In this document: positions 1 to 56,534 of the stretch, in pieces
How positions within the stretch are numbered: the first letter of the stretch is position 1
How the letters are laid out: the number at the start of each line of letters is the position of its first letter
From: a virus
Taxonomy: Duplodnaviria > Caudoviricetes
Direction: 5' to 3' (one strand)
DNA length: 57,294 nucleotides
IMG/VR virus record: IMGVR_UViG_3300017748_000009
Coordinates: 1 to 57,294 of that record
Made by a program: the position numbers and the translations under genes
The notes under the pieces: model-generated
Databases searched by the model: none
What the model was told of the DNA's origin: nothing
What the model saw: only the letters and a program-made list of their open reading frames with translations

Positions 1-123
1 ATCAAGCAAGGTGGTATACTTCCCATGCTCAAGTTTGTAATGCTCAAACTCATCCTTGTCGACTTCTATTTCTACCTCAGCAAATTTGTGGTAGACACTT
101 CGGTTTTGAATTTTTACTTTCAT
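1..123. repeat. Terminal direct repeat, copy 1 (probable circular assembly overlap)
   Basis: 1-123 is identical to 57172-57294 and falls inside a CDS. Confidence 0.95.
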
Positions 124-266
124 ATATATATATATTTAAATTGTTTTGATTTCCATTTCTTGTGCCAATATGTATACTTAGAGTCCTGAGGTCGCAAAAC
201 TATAATGCGACCCCCATTCTCTTTCTGCACACACAACACATTTGTATTCAGCTTTTTAACTATCAT
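120..266 (-). CDS. Small hypothetical early protein (48 aa)
   Basis: Manual translation MIVKKLNTNVLCVQKENGGRIIVLRPQDSKYTYWHKKWKSKQFKYIYI; its stop overlaps (ATGA) the start of the next gene at 123. Confidence 0.55.
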   Translation of the reverse strand: MIVKKLNTNVLCVQKENGGRIIVLRPQDSKYTYWHKKWKSKQFKYIYI

Positions 267-272
267 TAAATT

Positions 273-710
273 TTATTTAAAGATTTCCATTATTTGATTT
301 AACTTATCTTCAATCTCGTTATGCTTTCGATACAAATCTTGGACATTGAAGGCACTCATACGAGCATGGTTTATAAATTCTAATAATATATATGGGTTAT
401 GTTTACCTGTACCCCCAATACTCCAAGTATCTAATTTGTGTTTGGTATATTGTAAGTCATAGGTTTTCCAATCATATATTTCAAACCTACCTTTGTTACC
501 TTCGGTATCAGTTATCTCAATGACCCAAGTCATTTGAACTTTGTCATCACCTGTCTGAATTTCAGAGGGACTGCCAAAAATAAATTTCAAATCACTATAA
601 TATATATTAGTTAAGGCATCTATTTTATGCCCACCTTGAAACGATGCATTAGCTTCGTCTTCTGTGAGAACTTTAATGGTGTTCCCTTCCCATTCTGTAA
701 TTTTTCTCAT
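273..710 (-). CDS. Hypothetical early phage protein
   Basis: 145-aa ORF in the operon, with a DKV..W..IYDWK..WSIGG pattern seen in phage early proteins. Confidence 0.8.
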   Translation of the reverse strand: MRKITEWEGNTIKVLTEDEANASFQGGHKIDALTNIYYSDLKFIFGSPSEIQTGDDKVQMTWVIEITDTEGNKGRFEIYDWKTYDLQYTKHKLDTWSIGGTGKHNPYILLEFINHARMSAFNVQDLYRKHNEIEDKLNQIMEIFK

Positions 711-1072
711 AACTCTGCTTCAAAATTTAATTGGGTTTCCGTTGGGTTATTATCAAACCATTCTTTGATTTGTTTACCCATACGATAATCAGCAAATTCC
801 ATCAAGTCTTCCTGACTAACACCATATTTTTTACAGATGTCATCATTATACCCAACTTCATTGTCGAACATCTTTGTTACTCTTTTTATACATCCTGTTT
901 GCTCGATGTCATTTAACTCCTTACATATATCTTCATAGCTGTCTTCTTTGTGGACAACGTAATCAATATAGTTAGACTCTTGGCTTACGGCTCCAAACCT
1001 TTCACCTGCATCGCTGTTTTGAACGGCAAACATAAATTTTCCATCTATGTCACCTGTGTAATACCTACCCAT
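707..1072 (-). CDS. Hypothetical early protein (start revised to MGRYYTGDIDGKF)
   Basis: The longer ORF start would overlap the upstream gene and a ribozyme; ATG at 1072 follows an A-rich leader. Confidence 0.8.
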   Translation of the reverse strand: MGRYYTGDIDGKFMFAVQNSDAGERFGAVSQESNYIDYVVHKEDSYEDICKELNDIEQTGCIKRVTKMFDNEVGYNDDICKKYGVSQEDLMEFADYRMGKQIKEWFDNNPTETQLNFEAEL

Positions 1073-1094
1073 TTTTTGTAGTGTTTTTAAGTTT

Positions 1095-1157
1095 ATACTG
1101 ACTATGTAGAAGTTGTCTACATAGTTTCGCCATAATCTCAATGGCTCATCAGAGTAT
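1095..1157 (-). ncRNA. Hammerhead ribozyme, type I (HH4)
   Basis: Minus strand reads AUACU-CUGAUGA-GCCAU(ugagauu)AUGGC-GAAA-CUAUGUAGA(caacu)UCUACAUAG-UC^AGUAU. All three stems pair; predicted cut between 1100 and 1099. Confidence 0.93.
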
Positions 1158-1508
1158 TTATTTATCTCTTGACAATTCGTAATCTGTGTCGCTATTGTCA
1201 TTGCATTCAGGACAAGGAGAGGTGTTGGCAAACTCACTTTCGTAAGATGATTGCCAAACGACCCCTTCTCCATCACACACATCACACAAATCTCTTTCCT
1301 GTTCCCACTCTTCAATCAATTCATCATCAAAGAAATAGTTAGTATAGTTGGACTCGCCATCCATTACAATATCTTTAGCGTACTCTTCCATATCGTATTT
1401 ATCCATAAATAAGTTTTCAGGGTCAATATGTTCTTCGGTGTCAAGATGTAGCCACCCTAATTCGTGACCATTTGTAATCATTATTTTATCAAAAATGTAG
1501 TGTTTCAT
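1158..1508 (-). CDS. Acidic early protein with a CxxCxGxG...CxxC zinc finger
   Basis: CDVCDGEG...CPEC motif; very D/E-rich; first gene after the promoter at 1533-1564. Confidence 0.8.
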   Translation of the reverse strand: MKHYIFDKIMITNGHELGWLHLDTEEHIDPENLFMDKYDMEEYAKDIVMDGESNYTNYFFDDELIEEWEQERDLCDVCDGEGVVWQSSYESEFANTSPCPECNDNSDTDYELSRDK

Positions 1509-1532
1509 GTCTGTAGTGTTTTAAATGTTCGA

Positions 1533-1564
1533 CAAATGTACGACAAAATTTCGACATTTCCAAA
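1533..1564 (-). promoter_or_regulatory. Bacteroidota sigma70-type early promoter
   Basis: TTTG(-33)-N20-TACATTTG(-7) on the minus strand; overlaid by CGACA at 1530, 1541 and 1552. Confidence 0.85.
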
Positions 1565-1592
1565 CATTGTAGTGTTTTTTCTTATATATATA

Positions 1593-2744
1593 TTATACTT
1601 TTTCTTTTTGATTATTAAATCTATCTGCCCAACCTTCCCAATTTTCATAGCTTAACTTCTGTTGGTCGGTAACCTTCTCAAGACTAAATAAACTATCTCC
1701 AAAGTCATATACATTAAATTCAAGGCTACTTCCTGATTTGAATATTAAATCTATCTTTCTGAAGGTGTGGTTATATCTTCCATAACCTTTCTTAACAGTT
1801 GCTTTTGGATACTTCTCTTGCAACAACTCCTTAGCCTTATTAAATGCTTGTCTTTGTTTAACATAAGAGTCAAAACTCCATTGACTTTCTTTGTTGGTTT
1901 CAGCAACCTTTTTAAGCAGTCCTTTAGCTGAGTATTGTCTTTCAGTACCTACGATTGCATAGCTACAGTATTTGCCGTTTTTATAGCTTCTCCAACCATT
2001 ACTGTATGCATCTTTTGGCTCTGTCCATTCCCATTTTAAATATGGTGTTTCAACATTATAACTATTCACATATTTAAGGTATTTAACTTTAACATAAAGG
2101 TCTATGCTATGAACAGTAATAATATATTTACTATCACCTATTATAAAACTATACTCTGTTTCTCTGTCCTCTTTATCAACCTTTAGATTATCACCTTCAA
2201 CCCAACCTGCATCAATAAATGCTTGATGTTTAATTTTCTGTTCTTGGTTAATCTTTTCACCTGACTCAGCTATTTCTTTTATAGTTTTAAGATGGTTATT
2301 GGTATCCAATGGCTCTATATCCACCCAATGCTCTTTGAACTCATCAGTAACCTCTTTTTGGTCATATGGATTATTGAAGTCTATTTTGACAGTCTTCAAT
2401 GAGTCCTCAATACGTTTGATTAAATCATCTATTTGGCTCTTAGATTTCCAACCCAAAACACCTGAGCCGTTGTCATCAAAATCGCCATAGTAAAACTTGT
2501 CTGTAAACTCTTGGCTTTTTCCGTCATCAGTATCTTTAAATACTGCCACTTCAAATGAGATGTAGTACTCAGCCATATTGGGTTTGTAGTAGGACTCTTT
2601 ACCTGCCGTTGAGTACATACCCTCACCTGCTACAACCGATAGTTCATATTGACCTATTGTCAATGTACCTTGAACACCCTTCTCACCAAGAGCAGAATGG
2701 TTTTTCCAATTTATATCTTGGAAGTGGAAATTTGCTTTTTTCAT
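1593..2744 (-). CDS. Hypothetical multi-domain early protein (start revised to MKKANF)
   Basis: Long ORF; the upstream in-frame start at 2771 lies inside ribozyme HH3. Confidence 0.8.
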   Translation of the reverse strand: MKKANFHFQDINWKNHSALGEKGVQGTLTIGQYELSVVAGEGMYSTAGKESYYKPNMAEYYISFEVAVFKDTDDGKSQEFTDKFYYGDFDDNGSGVLGWKSKSQIDDLIKRIEDSLKTVKIDFNNPYDQKEVTDEFKEHWVDIEPLDTNNHLKTIKEIAESGEKINQEQKIKHQAFIDAGWVEGDNLKVDKEDRETEYSFIIGDSKYIITVHSIDLYVKVKYLKYVNSYNVETPYLKWEWTEPKDAYSNGWRSYKNGKYCSYAIVGTERQYSAKGLLKKVAETNKESQWSFDSYVKQRQAFNKAKELLQEKYPKATVKKGYGRYNHTFRKIDLIFKSGSSLEFNVYDFGDSLFSLEKVTDQQKLSYENWEGWADRFNNQKEKV

Positions 2745-2758
2745 TTTATTTGATTTTA

Positions 2759-2814
2759 AGATTAAGACCACCTATGAAGGTGGTTTCGACCTATAAGGTC
2801 TCATCAGTTAATCT
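2759..2814 (-). ncRNA. Hammerhead ribozyme, type I (HH3)
   Basis: AGAUUAA-CUGAUGA-GACC(uuaua)GGUC-GAAA-CCACC(uucaua)GGUGG-UC^UUAAUCU; predicted cut between 2766 and 2765; stem I includes the upstream stop codon. Confidence 0.94.
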
Positions 2815-3044
2815 CTCGTTGGGTAAATATCTTCCCACCCATCTACTGAGTTGGGGTAAGCATATGTTCTTGGCTCTTTGTACGGCTCTTGTTCGTAAGG
2901 CTCTACCCAAAAATCTTGTTCTCCCCATCTTTCAATACATTCTGTTGCCTCTTGTTCTGCCTCTGCTGATGTTTTAAAGCCATCTTCCTGTATTACACTC
3001 AGACCAAATTCGTCTATTGTTACTACTTTGTACATTATTTTCAT
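2808..3044 (-). CDS. Small acidic early protein
   Basis: 78-aa ORF with an AT-rich leader like that of its neighbours. Confidence 0.75.
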   Translation of the reverse strand: MKIMYKVVTIDEFGLSVIQEDGFKTSAEAEQEATECIERWGEQDFWVEPYEQEPYKEPRTYAYPNSVDGWEDIYPTRD

Positions 3045-3061
3045 GATATATATATATTAAA

Positions 3062-3415
3062 TTATAATTCTAATCTTCTCTCTTTGATGGCATCACAGAG
3101 TATCTCTCTATAGTCTTGGCTACCCCTTCTTATGGCTCCTACTACATCACCATCTAAGACGGCAGACATGAAGCCACCTTCACTTTTTTTCATGTGAAAT
3201 TTCATGTCCAACTCTTCGTTGTCCATCAGGTAATATGCACAACGACTGCCAATGTGAGAGTCTGTGCCTTGGTATAAAGCTACAAGCATTTGATACCCCT
3301 TAAATGAGGTAAGATATTCGTATTGGTGGTCTTTGTCCTTACGGCTCAAATAATGTGGAGTATAGCAATCGTTTAACTCTATTTTCATTTCGTCTTTAAA
3401 TGTTACTTTTTGCAT
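3062..3415 (-). CDS. Hypothetical early protein
   Basis: 117-aa ORF directly downstream of HH2. Confidence 0.75.
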   Translation of the reverse strand: MQKVTFKDEMKIELNDCYTPHYLSRKDKDHQYEYLTSFKGYQMLVALYQGTDSHIGSRCAYYLMDNEELDMKFHMKKSEGGFMSAVLDGDVVGAIRRGSQDYREILCDAIKERRLEL

Positions 3416-3439
3416 GATATATATATTAAATTAATATTA

Positions 3440-3488
3440 CTGTTTCGACCTTTTGGTCTCATCAGGACAGATACACATCTGCCGACAG
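3440..3488 (-). ncRNA. Hammerhead ribozyme, type III (HH2)
   Basis: CUG-UC^GGCAGA(ugugua)UCUGUC-CUGAUGA-GACC(aaaa)GGUC-GAAA-CAG; predicted cut between 3484 and 3483; preceded by hairpin GGGGUC-GAAA-GACCCC (3490-3505). Confidence 0.92.
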
Positions 3489-3514
3489 AGGGGTCTTTCG
3501 ACCCCCATTTGGAC

Positions 3515-4462
3515 TTACTCTCCAAGGATATAATCTACTGCCTTAGCTGACTTTGTCAGGGCTGATACTACTGCTTTCGCATCCTCTTTTTCAACTGCTT
3601 TCACCCATCCGTTGATATAGGCTTGACTGTTGCTTTCGTCATCTCCACAGTCTGTGCAGATACCTGCTACACCTGATAACACCATCGCACCACTCTCAGC
3701 AATTAACTCCTCAAATGCGTAATCTGCTCTGCTCTTGGTTAACATCTTTGCTGTTGTTACACCATCTCTGTTGAGCCTACTTTCGTGACCTGTGCTGTGT
3801 ACCATCTCATGAAATAATGTTTTATAGAAGTTATCAGAGTTGACAAATTGGCTCATTAACGGCATTACTATTATGTCTTTTAATGGTGAGTAACAGGCTC
3901 TGTCTCCTTCGACTTCTCTAATATCTAACTTAGGGTTGTCCTTCTTATAAACAGATACTATATTTTCTGCTGACTCGATAGGTTGAACATCTTTGTTTGT
4001 CTCTTCGTGTGGTCTCTTAGGAGTTAAACCTGTGCATTGTGCTATGTTCCATACTCTGTAGAAACGAAGATTAAAGTTAGTAAAGATGTCACTTTCGCTA
4101 CAATTTTCTGCTTTCATACATTCTCTTTTAGTCTTGTACCATTTCCCTGAGCCACCCATCGCTGTATAACTGATTAGCCAAAAATATACATCTGTTCCAC
4201 TTTCGCCCTTCTTAACTTTGCCACCTGAGGCTCCAACACTCTTGAAGGTTGACCACTCGTTGTACTCATATCCTTTGTCTGTCATCTCAGCATTTAAGAT
4301 AAAATTGTTAAACCCTTTGTAGGCTCTTCCTGAGGCATTGTTGATAGGAAAATTTAACCCTGCTTTCCATGGTTTAAACCATTGTAAGCCGTCTTTCTTT
4401 AGTCCATCGAGAAGAGTCTGCTTTACTTTCTCGGTTACATCCATTTTGATTTTCTGTGTCAT
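3515..4462 (-). CDS. ardC: ArdC-like antirestriction protein (ssDNA-binding N-domain plus zincin-like MPTase domain)
   Basis: W.KPW, N.SGRAY.G.N, W.TFK, VKKGE, LFHEMVHSTGH, YAFEELIAE and SQAYI.GW motifs. Confidence 0.92.
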   Translation of the reverse strand: MTQKIKMDVTEKVKQTLLDGLKKDGLQWFKPWKAGLNFPINNASGRAYKGFNNFILNAEMTDKGYEYNEWSTFKSVGASGGKVKKGESGTDVYFWLISYTAMGGSGKWYKTKRECMKAENCSESDIFTNFNLRFYRVWNIAQCTGLTPKRPHEETNKDVQPIESAENIVSVYKKDNPKLDIREVEGDRACYSPLKDIIVMPLMSQFVNSDNFYKTLFHEMVHSTGHESRLNRDGVTTAKMLTKSRADYAFEELIAESGAMVLSGVAGICTDCGDDESNSQAYINGWVKAVEKEDAKAVVSALTKSAKAVDYILGE

Positions 4463-4492
4463 TGTGTGTGTTTTAAATTAATATTTATTATT

Positions 4493-4544
4493 CCTGTTTC
4501 GCCTTCTTTGGCTCATCAGCACAGGGTTATCACCTGTGGACAGG
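4493..4544 (-). ncRNA. Hammerhead ribozyme, type III (HH1)
   Basis: CCUG-UC^CACAGG(ugauaac)CCUGUG-CUGAUGA-GCC(aaagaa)GGC-GAAA-CAGG; predicted cut between 4539 and 4538; preceded by hairpin GGGGCA-GAAA-UGUCCC (4545-4560). Confidence 0.93.
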
Positions 4545-4566
4545 GGGACATTTCTGCCCCTATCTG

Positions 4567-4743
4567 CTACCCCTCGAAGCCGTATAAATCGCCAAGGGTT
4601 TGGAAGATTTCATCTCTTCCGTTGTCGTATTCGATAGCTGATATAAAGCCTGATGCATAATCTCTCTCGAGTCTGTCCTCAAGAAAAAATACCTGTTGTG
4701 CCATCTCTGTTGTGTTACCTGTTGTACTGATTGAATGTGTCAT
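4567..4743 (-). CDS. First early gene, small acidic protein (58 aa)
   Basis: Manual translation MTHSISTTGNTTEMAQQVFFLEDRLERDYASGFISAIEYDNGRDEIFQTLGDLYGFEG; lies between the promoter and HH1. Confidence 0.7.
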   Translation of the reverse strand: MTHSISTTGNTTEMAQQVFFLEDRLERDYASGFISAIEYDNGRDEIFQTLGDLYGFEG

Positions 4744-4772
4744 GTTTGTTGATTTAATTATTAATATTTGTT

Positions 4773-4804
4773 CAAATGTAGTTTAAATATATATACACTC
4801 CAAA
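4773..4804 (-). promoter_or_regulatory. Main early promoter (Bacteroidota sigma70-type)
   Basis: TTTG-N20-TACATTTG on the minus strand. Confidence 0.85.
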
Positions 4805-5206
4805 CTTTTTTGCAACTAATTAATTATATTGTCTGTAACTTATTGTATGTCAGCTACTTACAGATGTTAAAAATACTGTCTTTTGTTTACTTAAATTTAG
4901 GTCTACTCTGATGGTATCGAGGGAAGGCTGTTCTCTATTCCCTTTGTTGGTATCACGTCCCACCAAGGAAGGGACACCCTGAAGAGGGGCAACACCTTAA
5001 AAAAGTTTACATGATATATATATCTAAGGGGTCAAGGCTTACAGGTTGACAAGGTCATTAGTCAATAGATAAAACGCCAAAAAATTAGGAATGCAAATTT
5101 TAAAAACAGACCCCCCCCTACGAAAAAAAAGTTGATTTCCCTGACACAGATTTTGCGTGTAGCCATAATATAACCCAATTGCTCTAAGTGTCTAAATAAA
5201 AAATCT

Positions 5207-5214
5207 TATCTTTG
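5207..5214 (+). promoter_or_regulatory. -7 promoter element TATCTTTG
   Basis: Matches TAnnTTTG, 21 nt upstream of ATG 5236. Confidence 0.65.
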
Positions 5215-5235
5215 TAAAAGACAAAAAAAATTATT

Positions 5236-5436
5236 ATGCATTTTAAAATAAAACCCTCAATGATGGGATACGATGTAAAGGATGGTAGGTTAATAAATAA
5301 CGCACCGCCTTTAACTACAGGTATTGACAGAGCAGTAATGTTAAAGAACTCTTTAAAGAGAGCAAAGAAAGTTCAGATGATAGCTGAAGGAAATGAATTA
5401 GCAAATGCTAACATAAACTTATTTAAGAAACTATAA
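5236..5436 (+). CDS. Hypothetical protein
   Basis: 66-aa ORF with its own promoter and terminator. Confidence 0.7.
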   Translation: MHFKIKPSMMGYDVKDGRLINNAPPLTTGIDRAVMLKNSLKRAKKVQMIAEGNELANANINLFKKL

Positions 5437-5499
5437 TTATAGTAGTTTGTTTGTAATGGAGTAAGTTGTTTTTAGTAGTGTTTTAACAACTTAATAATT

Positions 5500-5533
5500 A
5501 AGGGACCCTCCTCATAAGGTCCCTTTTCCTTTT
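5500..5533 (+). terminator. Intrinsic terminator
   Basis: AAGGGACC-N10-GGTCCCTT followed by a T-rich tract. Confidence 0.65.
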
Positions 5534-5560
5534 ATATAATGTTAAGTTTTATATAGTCTG

Positions 5561-5592
5561 TGTTGACTTTATGTTGACTTTGTGTTAACTTT
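5561..5592. repeat. Three tandem TGTTRACTTT repeats, 11-bp period (iteron/operator-like)
   Basis: Copies at 5561, 5572 and 5583; related copies near 5540 and 5636. Confidence 0.75.
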
Positions 5593-5750
5593 AAAATACC
5601 TAACTAACTGATAATCAATTTAATAACTATAATTATGTTGAGTTGACGACTTAAGAGGGGTCATAGACGGAAAAAAAATAATTACGATAAAGAAAAGAGA
5701 GAGAGAGTATAGCGAAAGAAATTTAACACTTGACACTTAATATAATTTAG

Positions 5751-5758
5751 TATATTTG
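5751..5758 (+). promoter_or_regulatory. -7 promoter element TATATTTG for groEL
   Basis: Matches TAnnTTTG upstream of ATG 5781. Confidence 0.65.
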
Positions 5759-5780
5759 CTTTAAATTAAATCTAATACAT

Positions 5781-7400
5781 ATGAATCCAAAAGAACTGCA
5801 CTTTGATAGTGTCGGGCGAAAGAAGCTACTTAGTGGAATAACCCAAATAGCTAAAGCTGTTAAATCTACATTAGGACCCCAAGGGAACACAGTCTTAATA
5901 GAATCACAAGAACACATAGGAGGAATTACTGTGACGAAAGATGGAGTTACAGTAGCTAAATCAATTAATCTATTAGACCCTGTAGAAAACCTAGCGGTTA
6001 GAATAATGAAGGAAGCAGCAGATAAGACTGCAACCTCAGCCGGTGATGGAACAACTACAGCCATTGTATTAACTGAAAGTTTAGTATCTAAAGGTTTAGA
6101 GCTTATAGATGAAAAAGTTAATAGAACAGAAGTATTAAAGTTATTACAAGCTGAGTCTAATACTATTGTTGGTAAATTAAAAAAGAAATCAAAAAAAATA
6201 TCCGGTAAAAAACTAAAAGACGTTGCTGTTATTTCAGCAAACAATGATGAGTTTATTGGAGACTTAATATCTAAAGTATATAATAGCGTTGGTAAAGATG
6301 GTATTGTTACAGTTGAAAAGTCAAATAATCATGAGACATATTTTGAAACGACTAAAGGTATTAAAATTGACAGGGGATATAGTTCTCCACTATTTATTAA
6401 TGACCATAAACACGATGAGTGTATATATGAAAATATAAAAGTTTTAGTAGCTGATGCCGAGATAAGTAATATACTTCAAATAGAAAATGTATTAAAACAA
6501 GTAATTAATAATAAAGACAAGTTACTTATTATTGCTCCTTGCTCTGCAGGATTTACAAACACCATGGCAGCAAATGTAATGAAGAACGGATTAAAGTTAG
6601 TTAGTATACAACCACCCGACTTTGGATACAGACAACACGAGCTTATGAATGACATAGCTCTTGCTGTTGGCGCAACATACTTTAGCGAAAAGACAGGTGA
6701 CGATTTAAGTCTCATCGGTTATGACGATTTGGGTCATTGTTCCAAGGTGATAGTTGGGCGTGATTCAACAGTCGTCATAAAAGATGAGCAAGAAAACAGC
6801 GACTTAATAAAAGAAAGAGTTAAGGAATTATGGGGTGCCCATGATATAAGTAAAAGAAAACAAGACAAATCTTTTATTGAGAAACGTATTGCATCACTTA
6901 CAGGTGGTATTGGTGTTATGTATGTTGGTGGAAACACAGACTTAGAGCAAAAAGAATTATACGATAGGGTTGATGATGCTGTATGTGCAGTAAAGTCTGC
7001 GCTAGAAGAAGGAATACTACCCGGTGGTGGAGTGAGCTTATATAGAGAAGGACTATATTATGAAAACATAAATCCCTTTATTGGTGTTGATGAGCCTAAA
7101 GAATCACACGATTATCACACAAAAAAAATTGCTTACGCAATTTTAAGCTATGCCCTTAAGTCTCCGCTACTACAAATACTTTCTAATGCAGGTATGGATA
7201 ATGATATGTATTCAATTACAGACAATCCTGACGATGGGTATGATGTAAAGAATGAGAAGTGGGGTAATATGATGTCAATGGGAATTATAGACCCAATGAA
7301 AGTTACAAGGTCTGCTTTACAAAATGCAATAAGTGTAGCGATTACATTACTATCTACAAATGCAATAGTAACCATGATAAGAAAAAAGAATGAATCATGA
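5781..7400 (+). CDS. groEL: Phage-encoded chaperonin GroEL
   Basis: TLGP.G, TKDGVTVAK, AGDGTTTA, EEGILPGGG and GIIDP.KV motifs; no GGM tail. Confidence 0.97.
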   Translation: MNPKELHFDSVGRKKLLSGITQIAKAVKSTLGPQGNTVLIESQEHIGGITVTKDGVTVAKSINLLDPVENLAVRIMKEAADKTATSAGDGTTTAIVLTESLVSKGLELIDEKVNRTEVLKLLQAESNTIVGKLKKKSKKISGKKLKDVAVISANNDEFIGDLISKVYNSVGKDGIVTVEKSNNHETYFETTKGIKIDRGYSSPLFINDHKHDECIYENIKVLVADAEISNILQIENVLKQVINNKDKLLIIAPCSAGFTNTMAANVMKNGLKLVSIQPPDFGYRQHELMNDIALAVGATYFSEKTGDDLSLIGYDDLGHCSKVIVGRDSTVVIKDEQENSDLIKERVKELWGAHDISKRKQDKSFIEKRIASLTGGIGVMYVGGNTDLEQKELYDRVDDAVCAVKSALEEGILPGGGVSLYREGLYYENINPFIGVDEPKESHDYHTKKIAYAILSYALKSPLLQILSNAGMDNDMYSITDNPDDGYDVKNEKWGNMMSMGIIDPMKVTRSALQNAISVAITLLSTNAIVTMIRKKNES

Positions 7401-7558
7401 GAAAATTAGCTTTAATAGGAGGACTTAGTTTAATGACTGCCGGAAGTAGTTACATGATTTGGCATCCTCATGCACCTCAATTTGATTTAAACCCAAATAC
7501 TTTAGCGATAGCCACAGGAGGATTTTTTGTAGCAGTAGGAATTACTTATAAATTTTAA
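7397..7558 (+). CDS. 53-aa hydrophobic mini-protein ending VGITYKF
   Basis: Manual translation MRKLALIGGLSLMTAGSSYMIWHPHAPQFDLNPNTLAIATGGFFVAVGITYKF; ATGA-coupled to the groEL stop. Confidence 0.7.
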   Translation: MRKLALIGGLSLMTAGSSYMIWHPHAPQFDLNPNTLAIATGGFFVAVGITYKF

Positions 7559-7612
7559 ATGATAAAAAAAGAATGGCAATGGATGTCAGACTTTATAATT
7601 AAAAAAAAAATA

Positions 7613-7870
7613 ATGAAGCCAATAGCTAGATATATTTTAATTGAGCCAATAGAAGAAGAGATAAAAACTGAATCAGGTATTTTATTAAGTGGTGATGAAG
7701 CTCATAAAAGAAGATACCAAAAAGGTAAGGTACACTCTATAGGTCATCATGTTGAATCAATTAATGCTGATGATATAATTTATTATGACCACCGAAGTGC
7801 TCACACCTTACTGATGGAAGGAAGTAAAATTACAGTCATTCAAGAGAAGGACGTAGTAATTGTTTTATAA
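7613..7870 (+). CDS. groES: Co-chaperonin GroES (start may instead be 7559)
   Basis: MKPI..YILIEP..EEIKTESGILL...GKV.SIG...I.EKDV motifs. Confidence 0.9.
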   Translation: MKPIARYILIEPIEEEIKTESGILLSGDEAHKRRYQKGKVHSIGHHVESINADDIIYYDHRSAHTLLMEGSKITVIQEKDVVIVL

Positions 7871-8228
7871 AGTTCCTGTATAATTTATCTGTATATTTTT
7901 TATCTGAAAAAATAGTAGTGGGAATATCTTCTCCATTTAGTTTTTTATAAACAGAACTAATAACCCTTTTAGATTTAAATGAGAGTTGGTATATAGCCCT
8001 GTGCTTTCCTACTCTTTTTCTATAGACCTCTATCCAACCATTTCTTTTTAGATTTTCAAATCTGTCTTTATCCCAACTTAAGAGTTCATTAAATTCTTTA
8101 AAGTTTTCTTTAGAAAACCTACCTTCAGATTTTAAAAATAAAATCATTTCTAAATCTGAGGTTGTAAGATTATATTTTGTTTTTATAAAGTAACGAACTA
8201 CTCTCCAATATTTTAGATAGTCTTCCAT
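7836..8228 (-). CDS. Putative winged-helix (MarR-like) transcriptional regulator
   Basis: YNLTTSDLEMILFL...LKRNGWIEV...YQLS.K pattern; only minus-strand gene in the plus arm. Confidence 0.6.
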   Translation of the reverse strand: MEDYLKYWRVVRYFIKTKYNLTTSDLEMILFLKSEGRFSKENFKEFNELLSWDKDRFENLKRNGWIEVYRKRVGKHRAIYQLSFKSKRVISSVYKKLNGEDIPTTIFSDKKYTDKLYRNFIKQLLRPSLE

Positions 8229-17251: not shown

Positions 17252-19470
17252 TAAAAGAAATTAAAGATTATATATCACCATCTGTTATTGCAAACAAAAA
17301 TAGAGCAAGGACTTGGTTATATGGATATAATCGAAAATATGATTTAGTTATAATTTCAAAGTCAGGACAAATTGGAAGTATAATAGAAATATCAAATATA
17401 AAAATAGCCCTTCCTAAAGCCTCTAAGGAAATTATAAAAAGACACGATAAAAAGCTAGAGCAATATTGGGAAAGAAAACAAACCCCCAAACAACTTCAAA
17501 ACATACGGTCTATATTTCAATGGAATGAAATGCCAAGAGAGTTTAAGTCTAGGTGGGTAGACTATATAGAAAAAGAATTTGAATATAGGGATGAAGGACA
17601 TTGGTTTTTTAATAATGGAAATCCAACATATATTACAGGTGCTCATTATATGTATTTACAATGGACTAAAATAGATGTAGGTTATCCTGATTACAGAGAA
17701 GCCAATAGAGCTTTTTTTATTTTTTGGGAGGCTTGTAAGGCAGACACAAGGTCTTATGGGATGTGTTATTTAAAAATAAGAAGGTCCGGATTTTCTTTTA
17801 TGGGCTCCTCAGAATGCGTTAACACAGGAACAATATCTAAAGATTCAAGAGTAGGTATATTGTCTAAGACAGGGGGTGATGCCAAAAAAATGTTTACTGA
17901 TAAAGTAGTTCCTATATCTAATAACTATCCGTTCTTTTTTAAACCTGTTCAAGACGGTATGGATAAACCTAAAACAGAACTAGCCTATAGAGTACCTGCA
18001 TCAAAAATCACAAAAAAAAATATGCATGAAATATTTGGTGATGACATGGAGGGATTAGACACCACTATTGATTGGAAGAATACGGATGATAACTCTTATG
18101 ATGGAGAAAAACTAATGTTATTAGTACACGATGAAAGTGGAAAATGGATTAAACCCAACAATATTTTAAACAATTGGGGAGTAACTAAAACCTGCCTACG
18201 ATTAGGTAGTAAGATTATAGGTAAATGTATGATGGGTTCTACATCTAACTCACTTGAAAAAGGGGGTAATAACTTTAAAAAACTTTACGAAAGTTCCGAT
18301 GTTACTAATAGAAACTCAAATGGTCAAACTAAAAGTGGGTTATATTCTCTTTTCATACCTATGGAGTGGAACATGGAGGGTTTTATTGACATATATGGAA
18401 TGCCTGTTTTGCATACACCAAAAGTAGAGTTAATGGGTGTAGATAGGGAATCTATTTATCAAAGCTCAATTGATTATTGGAATGGAGAAGTTGAATCACT
18501 TACTGATGATGCTGATACTTTAAATGAGTTCTATAGGCAATTCCCAAGGACAGAGGCTCATGCTTTCAGAGATGAAAGCAAATCATCAATATTTAACTTG
18601 AGTAAGATTTATCAACAAATTGATTTTAATGACGCAGTAATAAAAGAACATAATATAACTCAAGGAAAATTTATTTGGGAAAACGGAGTTAAGGATAGTA
18701 AGGTTATTTGGGTTCCTAGTAAAAAGGGAAGGTTTCATATATCTTGGCTACCTGCGTCACATATTCAAAACAATGTACATAAAAAAAATAACATAACTTA
18801 TCCGGGAAATGAACACTTAGGGGTATTCGGATGTGACTCTTATGATATTAGTGGTGTAGTTGGAGGTGGAGGTTCTAATGGTGCATTACATGGATTAACA
18901 AAGTTTTCAATGGACGATGCTCCGTCTAATGAGTTTTTTTTAGAATATATAGCACGACCACAAACTGCAGAAATATTTTTTGAAGATGTGTTAATGGCTT
19001 GTGTGTTTTATGGTATGCCCATACTAGTGGAGAATAATAAACCTCGTTTATTATATCACTTTAAAAATAGGGGTTATAGAAAGTTTTGTTTAAACCGTCC
19101 TGACAAGCACAGTTCAAAATTATCCAAGACGGAAAAAGAATTAGGTGGTATACCCAATTCAAGTGAGCAAGTTAAACAAGCTCATGCTGCAGCCATAGAA
19201 TCTTATATTGAAAAAAACATTGGATTTGATTTAGAAGAAGTATTTAGACCAAACGATGTTATAGGAACCATGCCGTTCAACAGAACACTATTGGATTGGG
19301 CTAAATTTGATATTAACAACAGAACCCGACATGATGCCTCTATTAGCTCAGGTTTAGCTATAATGGCTAATCAAAGGCACTTATACATACCTGAAAGAAA
19401 AGAGTCAAAAATAAATATTAACTTTGCAAGGTATAGTAACACGGGAACTAAAAGCGAAATAATTAGATGA
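17248..19470 (+). CDS. terL: Terminase large subunit
   Basis: KIRRSGFS (Walker A-like), LLVHDESGK (Walker B), GST coupling motif, GCDSYD and HDASIS nuclease residues. Confidence 0.9.
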   Translation: MIKEIKDYISPSVIANKNRARTWLYGYNRKYDLVIISKSGQIGSIIEISNIKIALPKASKEIIKRHDKKLEQYWERKQTPKQLQNIRSIFQWNEMPREFKSRWVDYIEKEFEYRDEGHWFFNNGNPTYITGAHYMYLQWTKIDVGYPDYREANRAFFIFWEACKADTRSYGMCYLKIRRSGFSFMGSSECVNTGTISKDSRVGILSKTGGDAKKMFTDKVVPISNNYPFFFKPVQDGMDKPKTELAYRVPASKITKKNMHEIFGDDMEGLDTTIDWKNTDDNSYDGEKLMLLVHDESGKWIKPNNILNNWGVTKTCLRLGSKIIGKCMMGSTSNSLEKGGNNFKKLYESSDVTNRNSNGQTKSGLYSLFIPMEWNMEGFIDIYGMPVLHTPKVELMGVDRESIYQSSIDYWNGEVESLTDDADTLNEFYRQFPRTEAHAFRDESKSSIFNLSKIYQQIDFNDAVIKEHNITQGKFIWENGVKDSKVIWVPSKKGRFHISWLPASHIQNNVHKKNNITYPGNEHLGVFGCDSYDISGVVGGGGSNGALHGLTKFSMDDAPSNEFFLEYIARPQTAEIFFEDVLMACVFYGMPILVENNKPRLLYHFKNRGYRKFCLNRPDKHSSKLSKTEKELGGIPNSSEQVKQAHAAAIESYIEKNIGFDLEEVFRPNDVIGTMPFNRTLLDWAKFDINNRTRHDASISSGLAIMANQRHLYIPERKESKININFARYSNTGTKSEIIR
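19419..19426 (+). promoter_or_regulatory. Possible -7 element TAACTTTG for portal
   Basis: TAnnTTTG 40 nt upstream of the portal ATG, inside terL. Confidence 0.45.
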
Positions 19471-25767: not shown

Positions 25768-26013
25768 ATGATGAATAAATTTTTAGAAATTGGAGATTAC
25801 GTTTTTGGTGGAAGTATAATGTATGTTGGTCTAAGTGCAGGAGTTTTAACCCTAAACTATGCGGACAAGAAATTTTCCCTTTCCGGGGGCGGTCAATTTG
25901 TAGCTACCGATAAAGATGCTATTGAAAAAGCTCTTGTAACCGTTTGGGAACAATCGTACACTCGGTCAACCACTAAAGTAAACTTAAGTCAAGCAATAAC
26001 ACTAGTTGAATAA
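25768..26013 (+). CDS. Small putative virion protein, possible paralog of the previous gene
   Basis: 81-aa ORF with a similar MNK start and layout. Confidence 0.7.
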   Translation: MMNKFLEIGDYVFGGSIMYVGLSAGVLTLNYADKKFSLSGGGQFVATDKDAIEKALVTVWEQSYTRSTTKVNLSQAITLVE

Positions 26014-26036
26014 CAATCGTTTTGCTAAAAAACTAT

Positions 26037-26070
26037 AAGAGGGCTAAAAAATTAGTCCTCTTTTTTTTTT
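26037..26070 (+). terminator. Intrinsic terminator
   Basis: AAGAGGGCTAA-AAAA-TTAGTCCTCTT followed by a T run. Confidence 0.85.
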
Positions 26071-26073
26071 GTT

Positions 26074-26081
26074 TATCTTTG
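26074..26081 (+). promoter_or_regulatory. -7 element TATCTTTG
   Basis: Directly after the terminator, before the tail genes. Confidence 0.6.
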
Positions 26082-56502: not shown

Positions 56503-56534
56503 CAAACTTACAAAATTATTTAGACAAATCCAAA
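56503..56534 (-). promoter_or_regulatory. Bacteroidota sigma70-type promoter
   Basis: TTTG-N20-TAAGTTTG on the minus strand; TAGACAAA repeated at 56499 and 56521. Confidence 0.75.

What the first reader, a model, noticed from the sequence alone, without database searches (positions are those of the whole stretch)
1095..4560. Four hammerhead ribozymes punctuate the phage early operon: a protein-free mRNA processing system
Seen: four intergenic elements on the coding (minus) strand, at 4493-4544, 3440-3488, 2759-2814 and 1095-1157. Each has the full core CUGAUGA / GAAA / GUC and three paired stems, although the stem sequences differ. Each starts within about 30 nt of an upstream stop codon, and I saw none in the late arm. 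Established: this is the hammerhead consensus, and cleavage leaves a 2',3'-cyclic phosphate and a 5'-OH. Hammerheads near phage genes have been noted in surveys, but their role there is poorly understood. Inference: the early transcript is cut into about 230, 1055 (ardC alone), 718 and 1666 nt pieces plus a distal part. This parallels RNase III processing of T7 early mRNA but needs no host enzyme. 5'-OH ends could resist 5'-monophosphate-dependent decay and set the level of each anti-defence gene.
Basis: partly seen in the sequence, partly recalled or inferred. Interest (0 to 1): 0.95.

Follow-up and report, generated by a model that had tools for sequence, protein, structure and literature searches.

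The report
Hammerhead ribozymes between phage early genes
Four genuine self-cutting hammerhead RNAs sit in the gaps between the first early genes of this marine phage, including its anti-restriction gene ardC, and probably chop one long message into single-gene pieces, an arrangement already described for other phages in 2011.

Summary
Shuffled sequence gives 0.027 per genome. Two are type III (4544-4493, 3488-3440) and two are type I (2815-2758, 1157-1095). None reaches Rfam's gathering score, but all four appear as sub-threshold hammerhead hits.

Relatives keep them. 6 of 15 ArdC loci have hammerheads next to ardC. Stem I pairs in 181 of 181 cells across 26 distinct sequences, with 2-5 pair types per position. 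Two other ArdC loci carry a pistol ribozyme upstream of ardC instead.

The processing reading is plausible but untested here, and it is not new. Perreault et al. 2011 (PMC3088659) described clustered hammerheads flanking single prophage genes, including the anti-restriction gene ardA, and proposed the same role. This scan has also noted the kind many times on other DNA.

One modest addition: type III copies are preceded by a stable, covarying hairpin (33 of 38), and type I copies never are (0 of 13). Every upstream product would therefore end in a helix.

Verdict: a new member of a known kind.

The parts
4773..4804 (-). Candidate early promoter (TTTG-N20-TAcaTTTG), about 30 nt before the first ORF. 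A start near 4765 would make the first piece about 227 nt.
   Evidence: pattern match and sequence. The consensus is recalled from Bacteroidota promoter studies and is not enriched genome-wide (6 matches against 4.3 expected).
4567..4743 (-). First ORF, 58 aa, no family match.
4545..4560 (-). Accessory hairpin (6 bp, GAAA loop) that abuts stem III of HH-A. It would be the 3' end of the upstream product.
   Evidence: fold. Relatives carry a different hairpin with a UUCG loop at the same place.
4493..4544 (-). HH-A, type III hammerhead, predicted cut between 4539 and 4538.
   Evidence: Rfam Hammerhead_3 scores 24.7 bits and 36.4 bits, below the cut-off of 48.5. Present in L002, L003 and L009.
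3515..4462 (-). ardC anti-restriction gene, 315 aa.
   Evidence: Pfam ArdcN 2.1e-20 and MPTase-PolyVal 7.7e-27. PHROG 7245 anti-restriction protein 1.3e-58.
3489..3506 (-). Accessory hairpin (7 bp, GAAA loop) that abuts stem III of HH-B.
   Evidence: fold. Conserved with sequence changes in L001, L002 and L009.
3440..3488 (-). HH-B, type III hammerhead, predicted cut between 3484 and 3483.
   Evidence: Rfam Hammerhead_3 scores 39.5 bits, E 4.1e-5. Its core and stem II pattern occurs in 38 IMG/VR loci, and all 40 matches are complete hammerheads. Stem I covariation.
3062..3415 (-). ORF, 117 aa, no family match.
2808..3044 (-). ORF, 78 aa. Its TAA stop (2810-2808) forms the last three bases of the 5' strand of HH-C stem I.
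2758..2815 (-). HH-C, type I hammerhead, predicted cut between 2766 and 2765.
   Evidence: Rfam Hammerhead_1 scores 22.4 bits against a cut-off of 34. The same slot in L001 holds an unrelated type I hammerhead.
1593..2744 (-). ORF, 383 aa, from the ATG at 2744. The longer GTG start at 2771 lies inside the ribozyme, upstream of the cut.
1533..1564 (-). Candidate internal promoter (TTTG-N20-TAcaTTTG) before the 116-aa ORF.
   Evidence: Inference only.
1158..1508 (-). ORF, 116 aa, with a weak CxxC zinc-finger-like match.
   Evidence: DnaJ_CXXCXGXG at 0.00069, below the cut-off.
1095..1157 (-). HH-D, type I hammerhead that starts directly after the stop codon. Predicted cut between 1100 and 1099.
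   Evidence: Rfam RAGATH-1-hammerhead scores 29.4 bits against a cut-off of 56.3. Near-identical copy in L001.
707..1072 (-). ORF, 121 aa, the first gene of the distal part.
   Evidence: PHROG 33624, 2.2e-15, full length.

Best explanation
The four elements are active-type hammerhead ribozymes encoded in the promoter-proximal part of the phage's early (replication and anti-defence) arm.

As RNA polymerase transcribes the arm, each ribozyme folds and cuts itself after C17. This would split the message into four parts: a leader piece carrying the 58-aa ORF, an ardC-only mRNA of 1055 nt, a two-gene piece of 718 nt, and a piece of 1666 nt plus the distal message. Each downstream piece starts with a 5'-OH. 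Each upstream piece ends in a 2',3'-cyclic phosphate just after a stable helix. For type I that helix is the ribozyme body itself. For type III it is a dedicated G/C-rich tetraloop hairpin that abuts stem III.

The likely effect is to uncouple the stability and translation of neighbouring genes, above all ardC, without any host nuclease.

Shown here: motif, rarity by chance, covariation, intergenic placement, hairpin rule.
Inferred: cleavage itself, co-transcription, and the effect on stability.
For: - Exactly 4 complete hammerheads, all on one strand, against 0.027 expected. All four show up as hammerhead-family hits in Rfam E-value mode.
- All core positions and core-adjacent pairs required by Perreault's acceptance criteria (passage) are met.
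- Among 15 ArdC loci from IMG/VR, 6 have hammerheads directly flanking ardC on the same strand: L001, L002, L003, L009, L012, L015.
- Another 2 loci (L007, L008) have a pistol ribozyme at 67.5 bits, 138 nt upstream of ardC. One (L005) has a sub-threshold twister-P1 match 660 nt upstream. Different cutter classes in the same neighbourhood point to cleavage as the selected function.
- The HH-C slot holds an unrelated type I hammerhead in L001, while the flanking coding sequence is conserved.
- The HH-B core pattern occurs in 38 IMG/VR loci. All 40 matches have a full stem I, U-H site and stem III, none of which were in the pattern. 19 of 38 loci carry further hammerheads, always on the same strand.
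- Stem I pairs in 181 of 181 cells, with 2-5 pair types per position. The slid control pairs in 42 of 181.
- Placement: for type III, the upstream stop lies 21-40 nt before the ribozyme in 31 of 38. For type I, the stop lies -9 to +2 nt from the ribozyme start in 13 of 13. The next ATG ORF starts within 50 nt in 31 of 37 (type III) and 9 of 11 (type I). Only 2 of 51 lie inside an ORF.
- Hairpin rule: the 24 nt upstream fold at -7.5 kcal/mol or better in 33 of 38 type III copies and 0 of 13 type I copies. Background is 2.0% and shuffles 5.7%. 16 of 20 sequence clusters have the hairpin.
- Genome layout: the minus arm holds primase/helicase, helicase and exonuclease genes. The plus arm holds terminase, portal and structural genes.
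- Precedent: clustered prophage hammerheads cleave in vitro and in E. coli (PMC3088659; passages read).
Against: - No cleavage was observed.
- None of the four reaches Rfam's gathering score.
- HH-B's 4-bp stem III is not in the MFE fold. HH-A has only a 3-bp stem II and HH-D only a 5-bp stem I. Loop-loop tertiary contacts needed for speed at cellular Mg were not assessed.
- One contig of an oligo-dT RNA library (X18, 3450-3644) runs across the HH-B cut site, and contigs of two possible RNA libraries cross the HH-C and HH-D sites. These may be DNA or uncut precursor.
- A promoter-like site at 1533-1564 may mean more than one transcript.
- 6 of 15 ArdC loci show no ribozyme. L014 was not in the E-value search.
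- The closest named relative by terminase (MW202828.1, 71.8%) has no hammerhead core match, so the elements are dispensable in the lineage.
- Perreault reports that 4 of 18 consensus hammerheads tested were inactive in vitro.
Confidence: 0.75

Rival explanations
1. Cleavage is conditional rather than constitutive. Translation of the upstream ORF gates folding, because a terminating ribosome covers stem I (type I) or the region next to the hairpin (type III). The cut would then report on, or be timed by, upstream translation or ionic conditions.
For: In 13 of 13 type I copies, the upstream stop codon lies within -9 to +2 nt of the first stem I base. In HH-C the TAA is part of stem I, and in HH-D the ribozyme starts right after the stop. 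Perreault et al. raise regulated cleavage as a possibility for phage hammerheads. An earlier scan note (e1-3481804) proposes stop-codon-linked gating on other DNA.
Against: Tight packing alone explains the overlap in a compact phage genome. Here the type III hairpins start 6 and 8 nt after the stop and do not cover the stop codon or the cut site. No alternative fold that sequesters the core was found.
Confidence: 0.12
2. The hammerheads are mainly passengers or junction elements of exchangeable gene cassettes. They persist because they travel with the cassettes or help recombination, and RNA cutting gives little benefit to this phage.
For: The occupant of the HH-C slot differs between the window and L001 despite 93% identical ArdC. 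A near-identical HH-B body occurs in a different context in a virome contig (X2 record 23) and in 38 varied IMG/VR loci. The flanked genes are not constant (Perreault). The closest named relative has none.
Against: Full catalytic cores and perfect stem covariation are maintained. Orientation always matches the genes. Placement relative to stop and start codons is precise. Unrelated ribozyme classes occupy equivalent positions. All of this argues for selection on cleavage in the transcript.
Confidence: 0.08
3. Paired cuts release RNAs whose 5'-OH and 2',3'-cyclic phosphate ends are joined, by the ribozyme's reverse reaction or by a host RtcB-type ligase. This would give a circular ardC mRNA or spliced products.
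For: ardC is flanked by two type III hammerheads, so the excised 1055-nt RNA has exactly the ends such ligation needs.
Against: Perreault et al. looked for spliced or circular products from clustered hammerheads and found none (data not shown in the paper). No back-spliced joint appeared in the laid contigs (table 5), although coverage was far too thin to count. The two ends of the ardC piece share no complementarity that I noticed.
Confidence: 0.03
4. The motifs are chance look-alikes or dead relics that do not cut.
For: All four are below Rfam gathering scores. Some stems are short. 4 of 18 consensus hammerheads were inactive in Perreault's assays.
Against: Four hits against 0.027 expected, plus covariation and conserved placement in relatives.
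Confidence: 0.02

Closest known systems
Clustered hammerhead ribozymes flanking genes in prophages and phages (Perreault et al. 2011, PLoS Comput Biol, PMC3088659; passages read, figures and supplements not seen)
   Same: Several consensus hammerheads lie on the coding strand and flank single genes or short gene blocks of a phage. An anti-restriction gene is among the flanked genes (ardA in Agrobacterium tumefaciens). The proposed role is the same: processing long phage transcripts into single-gene mRNAs. Types are mixed within one cluster.
   Different: Here the phage is an uncultured marine one whose terminase relatives infect Flavobacteriia. The flanked gene is ardC, not ardA. In the passages I read, the paper does not mention the hairpin that precedes type III copies. 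No activity data exist for these copies.
Rfam Hammerhead_3 (RF00008), Hammerhead_1 (RF00163) and RAGATH-1-hammerhead (RF03152)
   Same: Same catalytic core and three-helix junction. All four elements align end to end with these models.
   Different: Scores of 22-40 bits are below the gathering scores of 34-56. Standard annotation would miss them.
Pistol and twister self-cleaving ribozymes in phage-like gene neighbourhoods (Rfam RF02679, RF03160; that they share contexts with hammerheads is recalled from Weinberg et al. 2015, not read here)
   Same: They occupy the equivalent position upstream of ardC in other phage contigs (L007, L008 and perhaps L005). The chemistry of the ends is the same.
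   Different: Different fold and family. None is present in this window.
RNase III processing of phage T7 early mRNA (recalled textbook knowledge)
   Same: A polycistronic early transcript is cut between genes into stable individual mRNAs that end in hairpins.
   Different: T7 uses a host protein nuclease and leaves 5'-phosphate and 3'-OH ends. Here the RNA would cut itself and leave 5'-OH and cyclic phosphate ends. This is an analogy, not a relationship.
Synthetic ribozyme insulators such as RiboJ (a hammerhead plus a hairpin; recalled, not read here)
   Same: A hammerhead combined with an added hairpin standardises the ends of a message and removes upstream context.
   Different: RiboJ is engineered and its hairpin lies downstream of the ribozyme. 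Here the hairpin is natural, lies upstream, and would stay on the upstream product.

Membership tests
Hammerhead ribozyme | Core C3-U4-G5-A6-N7-G8-A9 between stems I and II. | tested here: met
   CUGAUGA is present in all four.
Hammerhead ribozyme | G12-A13-A14, the A15.1-U16.1 pair, and H17 (not G) at the cut site. | tested here: met
   GAAA followed by a stem III closed by A-U, and C17 in all four.
Hammerhead ribozyme | Three helices around the core, with no mispair next to the core (Perreault's acceptance criteria). | tested here: met
   The descriptor required perfect pairing. Stems I/II/III are 6/3/5, 7/4/4, 8/5/7 and 5/5/10 bp. The MFE fold agrees for 3 of 4; HH-B's stem III is replaced.
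Hammerhead ribozyme | Score at or above Rfam's gathering threshold. | tested here: not met
   0 matches at gathering. Best scores are 39.5/48.5, 36.4/48.5, 22.4/34 and 29.4/56.3 bits. This is a curation threshold, not a structural requirement.
Hammerhead ribozyme | Stems supported by compensatory changes in relatives. | tested here: met
   HH-B class: stem I pairs in 181 of 181 cells with 2-5 pair types per position, against 42 of 181 in the slid control. Stem II changes from GACC/GGUC to GUCC/GGAC. HH-A and HH-D relatives are too similar to add much. HH-C has no homologous copy in my set.
Hammerhead ribozyme | Tertiary contact between stems I and II (loop-loop or pseudoknot) for fast cleavage at cellular Mg. 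| not tested
   I only noted that the loop I sequences (UGUGUG-like) and loop II (AAAA) recur in the HH-B class list. I made no count and did not model the structure.
Hammerhead ribozyme | Site-specific self-cleavage that gives 2',3'-cyclic phosphate and 5'-OH ends. | not testable with these tools
   Only sparse contigs of RNA libraries were available.
Clustered phage hammerhead arrangement (Perreault 2011) | Two or more hammerheads close together on the coding strand, flanking single genes or short blocks in a phage or prophage. | tested here: met
   Four within 3.45 kb bracket 1, 2 and 2 ORFs. The same holds in relatives.
Clustered phage hammerhead arrangement (Perreault 2011) | All lie on one polycistronic transcript. 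| tested here: inconclusive
   Same-strand ORFs and no terminator-like site apart from the HH-C stem III itself. However, a promoter-like site at 1533-1564 lies within the block.

The most novel reading that the evidence does not exclude
A topology rule may govern phage hammerheads: every cut leaves a stable helix at the 3' end of the upstream mRNA. Type I copies start at the stop codon and stay on the upstream product. Type III copies stay on the downstream product and are therefore preceded by a dedicated covarying G/C tetraloop hairpin that abuts stem III. 'Hairpin plus type III hammerhead' would then be a composite, protein-free 3'-end-forming module. It would act as a substitute for a terminator, letting polymerase read on while still producing discrete, exonuclease-resistant mRNAs. 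Different cutter classes (hammerhead, pistol) would be recruited to the same slot before ardC. My two literature searches found no description of this hairpin. A sibling first-reader note on this genome (e1-6269128) proposes the same thing.
Probability: 0.35. Interest if true: 0.5.

Novelty: new member of a known kind. Interest (0 to 1): 0.3.

Why it matters
The biological role of the many hammerheads in phage genomes is still called unresolved in reviews (PMC6765202). This locus adds a clean example that standard annotation misses, because all four copies are below Rfam's thresholds.

It shows that the slot next to an anti-restriction gene is filled by different ribozyme classes in different phages.

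It also gives a simple, testable rule linking ribozyme topology to an accessory hairpin. The rule predicts which cleavage product is protected.

A cultured relative with one hammerhead makes wet-lab tests feasible: Flavobacterium phage vB_FspP_elemoF_6-3D, NC_055853.1, about 17866-17920, minus strand.

It does not reveal a new mechanism.

Tried and rejected
- **RNA evidence.** One look-up found 20 runs that hold the stretch. 17 are DNA or virome runs, and only X18 is on record as RNA (share 0.19). I laid X18, X19, X20 and the DNA run X2. All are Logan contigs of depth 2-5 that cover 11-17 of 30 bins. They show no ends and no strand. X18 record 4 (3450-3644) bridges the HH-B site, X19 record 13 (2574-2832) bridges HH-C, and X20 record 24 (1046-1275) bridges HH-D. 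X19 and X20 may be DNA. Nothing can be concluded for or against cleavage.
- **Rfam at gathering score** on the window: nothing.
- **blastn of window 1-8000 against named phages:** one record, matching groEL only.
- **Named relatives.** ArdC matches in named phages are all below 40% identity, and I did not examine their flanks. I scanned five named records chosen by terminase similarity for the hammerhead core. MW202828.1 and Cellulophaga phage phi38:1 had no match. phi46:3 and Tenacibaculum phage Gundel_1 had core-like strings that are not complete hammerheads. Only NC_055853.1 has a complete one.
- **RF00163 search** on five IMG/VR records: nothing over the cut-off.
- **Sigma-70-type promoter scan:** 33 sites against 22.6 expected, not informative for a Bacteroidota-type host. 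The one terminator-like site is HH-C's own stem III.
- **Bacteroidota-type promoter pattern:** 6 matches against 4.3 expected, so not enriched. The -7 box alone gave 93 against 90. The three minus-strand intergenic matches are leads only.
- **Leader ORFs.** The 58-aa ORF of the window and the 65-aa ORF before the pistol ribozyme in L007 show no similarity.
- **L006 hit.** In one search, under relaxed stem limits, L006 gave one hit on the opposite strand with a 2-bp stem II and a 36-nt loop. I treat it as chance and dropped it from the count of ArdC loci with hammerheads.
- **Redundant loci.** L002/L009, L007/L008 and L013/L014 are near-duplicates in this region. L049, L053 and L054 are the same contigs as L002, L001 and L009. 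Independent counts are therefore smaller than the raw ones.
- **Correction.** My notebook says 20 of 38 loci have further hammerheads. A recount gives 19.
- **Papers.** The supplements of Perreault 2011 (Figures S1-S3, Dataset S1) and Figure 3 were not visible. They may already contain marine or ArdC-linked examples, or the hairpin. Searches behind my statements that something is not in print:
  - 'hammerhead' + 'type III' + 'upstream hairpin': 0 papers.
  - 'ArdC' + 'ribozyme': 4 papers held the terms and 3 were listed. By title and abstract they concern human ribozymes, and I did not open them.
  - 'hammerhead' + 'self-cleaving' + 'phage' + 'anti-restriction': only Perreault 2011.
  - Searches listed nothing on phage operon processing by title or abstract.
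- **Not used:** structure prediction, complex prediction and protein database searches. They do not bear on the question.

Full report
**What is there**

The window is a complete 57,294-bp virus record with a 123-bp terminal repeat. I read the minus strand of 1000-4700 and ran a descriptor scan of my own. The descriptor required:
- CUGANGA, then a stem II hairpin, then GAAA;
- a stem III closed by A15.1-U16.1, with H17 at the cut site;
- a stem I, with perfect pairing throughout.

| Element | Type | Coordinates | Predicted cut |
|---|---|---|---|
| HH-A | III | 4544-4493 | 4539/4538 |
| HH-B | III | 3488-3440 | 3484/3483 |
| HH-C | I | 2815-2758 | 2766/2765 |
| HH-D | I | 1157-1095 | 1100/1099 |

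In 300 dinucleotide-preserving shuffles of the genome, the same scan found 0 hits in 293, 1 in 6 and 2 in 1, a mean of 0.027.

Rfam at gathering score reports nothing. In E-value mode, 6 of the 14 rows are hammerhead families. All six fall on these four elements, at 22.4-39.5 bits against cut-offs of 34-56.3. No hammerhead row lies elsewhere.

Thermodynamic folding gives the three-way junction for HH-A, HH-C and HH-D. For HH-B it gives stems I and II, but a competing pairing replaces the 4-bp stem III. Z-scores are -3.5 to -4.4.

**Context**

The ORFs on the minus strand, in order, are:
- a 58-aa ORF (4743-4567);
- ardC (4462-3515; Pfam ArdcN and MPTase-PolyVal, PHROG anti-restriction protein);
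- ORFs of 117 and 78 aa;
- a 383-aa ORF;
- a 116-aa ORF;
- a 121-aa ORF.

HH-A and HH-B bracket ardC alone.

The minus arm runs from about 4800 through position 1 and round to 47034. It holds primase/helicase, helicase and exonuclease VIII-like genes. The plus arm holds terminase, portal and structural genes. Calling the minus arm 'early' is therefore reasonable but inferred.

The cultured phages among the terminase matches (86 of 87 records) all infect Flavobacteriia: 68 Flavobacterium, 15 Cellulophaga, 2 Tenacibaculum and 1 Maribacter. All 86 are below 60% identity. The leaders before the start codons are A/T-rich and lack a Shine-Dalgarno sequence, which fits that host group (recalled knowledge).

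A TTTG-N20-TAcaTTTG site at 4773-4804 fits the Bacteroidota promoter consensus as I recall it. It would make the first piece about 227 nt. The pattern is not enriched genome-wide (6 matches against 4.3 expected), so these sites are leads only.

**Relatives**

Fifteen IMG/VR loci encode ArdC relatives at 35-93% identity.
- Six carry hammerheads directly beside ardC on the same strand: L001, L002, L003, L009, L012 and L015. L015 has four type I copies.
- L007 and L008 carry a pistol ribozyme well above Rfam's cut-off (67.5 against 34.5 bits). It follows a 65-aa ORF and lies 138 nt before ardC, with a possible short ORF in between.
- L005 has a sub-threshold twister-P1 match 660 nt upstream.
- Six loci show nothing.

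In L001 (ArdC 93% identical) the slot of HH-C is filled by a type I hammerhead of unrelated stems, while the coding flanks align.

A pattern made from HH-B's core and stem II matched 38 IMG/VR loci. All 40 matches turned out to have a full stem I, a U-H site and a stem III, none of which the pattern specified. 19 of the 38 loci have further hammerheads, always on the same strand.

In 26 distinct sequences of this class, stem I is paired in 181 of 181 cells, with 2 to 5 pair types per position. With the partner slid by one, 42 of 181 pair. The ascertainment fixed stem II and three pairs of stem III, so those say nothing.

**Placement**

I took 38 distinct type III and 13 distinct type I copies from loci L020-L057.
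- Type III: the upstream ORF's stop lies 21-40 nt before the ribozyme in 31 of 38.
- Type I: the stop lies -9 to +2 nt from the ribozyme's first base in 13 of 13.
- The next ATG ORF begins within 50 nt in 31 of 37 (type III) and 9 of 11 (type I).
- Only 2 of 51 lie inside an ORF.

The window's four copies obey the same pattern.

**The accessory hairpin**

Both type III copies in the window are preceded by a G/C-rich hairpin with a GAAA loop. The hairpins lie at 4560-4545 and 3506-3489 and abut stem III. Relatives have hairpins of different sequence there, with UUCG or GCAA loops.

In the wider set, the 24 nt upstream fold at -7.5 kcal/mol or better in:
- 33 of 38 type III copies;
- 0 of 13 type I copies;
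- 2.0% of 3000 background 24-mers;
- 5.7% of shuffles of the same 24-mers.

The upstream 24-mers fall into 20 sequence clusters, and 16 of these have the hairpin. In 21 of 33 cases it abuts stem III with no gap.

Two explanations fit, and they are not exclusive. The hairpin may stack on the short, open stem III and help it form. Or it may remain as a protective 3' helix on the upstream product, a role the ribozyme body itself plays for type I. I cannot separate these two. A sibling first-reader note on this genome (e1-6269128) and an earlier report on other DNA (e1-3481804) also mention hairpins before hammerheads. Unlike the latter, the hairpins here do not contain the stop codon or cover the cut site.

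**What it most likely does**

The most likely role is constitutive self-cleavage of the early transcript between genes. That would give an ardC-only mRNA and two two-gene pieces, each with a 5'-OH start and a helix-capped 3' end carrying a cyclic phosphate.

Shown here:
- the motif and its improbability by chance;
- covariation;
- precise intergenic placement;
- the recruitment of different ribozyme classes and different hammerheads to the same slots.

Inferred: the cleavage itself, co-transcription, and any effect on stability or translation. I put this reading at 0.75. The rivals are translation-gated or otherwise conditional cutting (0.12), passenger or cassette-junction elements (0.08), excision followed by ligation into circles (0.03) and inactive look-alikes (0.02).

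**Expression data**

The only RNA-labelled run that holds the stretch, and two possible ones, are stored as thin contigs. Some of those contigs cross the predicted cut sites, but they may be DNA or precursor. This settles nothing.

**Comparison with what is known**

Perreault et al. 2011 (PMC3088659; I read the passages returned, not the figures or supplements) state several things:
[quoted passage not shown] - three such arrangements cleave during in vitro transcription;
- the A. tumefaciens triple arrangement flanks the anti-restriction gene ardA and cleaves in E. coli;
- ardA follows a hammerhead in three Legionella strains.

A 2019 review repeats the idea and calls the function unresolved (PMC6765202, passage). 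The scan's own index holds 1557 notes containing the words hammerhead, ribozyme, phage and operon, and all eight listed involve a hammerhead ribozyme, most of them in phage early operons.

The finding is therefore a new member of a known kind. It features ardC rather than ardA, a marine phage of a Flavobacteriia-infecting lineage, and copies that Rfam's thresholds miss. The hairpin rule is the only part for which I found no description, based on 0 papers and nothing relevant. These searches cover open-access text only.

**Verdict**

- Observation: confirmed.
- Interpretation: plausible and partly supported, but neither demonstrated nor new.
- Interest: 0.3.

Among five named relatives scanned for the core, only Flavobacterium phage vB_FspP_elemoF_6-3D has a complete hammerhead. 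It offers a cultured system for the decisive end-mapping experiment.

Noticed in passing
L007:5803-5869 and L008:4632-4698 (+): A pistol ribozyme (67.5 bits, cut-off 34.5) follows a 65-aa ORF and lies 138 nt before an ArdC homologue. A possible CxxC mini-ORF of about 33 codons lies in between.
   Followed up: partly
L005:620-671 (+): Sub-threshold twister-P1 match (43.1 bits against a cut-off of 67.2, E 3.6e-6) about 660 nt upstream of an ArdC homologue.
   Followed up: no
window 4744-5780: About 1 kb between the divergent arms with few ORFs. It holds three close repeats of an AAAGTCAACA-like word near 5560-5595 and a G/C hairpin near 5495-5525 (minus-strand reading). This may be a regulatory or origin region.
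   Followed up: no
window 4773-4804, 1533-1564, 56503-56534 (-): Three intergenic promoter-like sites on the minus arm all begin TTTGGA and end TAnnTTTG. The class is not enriched genome-wide (6 matches against 4.3 expected).
   Followed up: partly
L001:1515-1571 versus window 2815-2758: The same intergenic slot holds two unrelated type I hammerheads in phages whose ArdC is 93% identical. The L001 version recurs in L009:8774-8830 with compensatory stem III changes and U17 instead of C17.
   Followed up: partly
NC_055853.1 about 17866-17920 (-) (L066:1550-1496): The cultured Flavobacterium phage vB_FspP_elemoF_6-3D has one complete type III hammerhead 14 nt before an ATG. My scan printed 30 nt upstream of it; I did not fold them.
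   Followed up: partly
window 3440-3481, run X2 record 23: A 958-nt virome contig matches only the 42-nt body of HH-B (2 differences) and has unrelated flanks. The same ribozyme body therefore sits in another genome of that sample.
   Followed up: no
window 25985-26074 (+): The weak L20_leader hit is really a G/C hairpin followed by a U-run. It is an intrinsic-terminator-like site at the end of the gene at 25768-26013 in the plus arm.
   Followed up: no
L002:5962-6000, L003 and L009 (same place): In these relatives, a further small GGC-GAAA-GCC hairpin lies between HH-A and the ardC start. The window lacks it.
   Followed up: no
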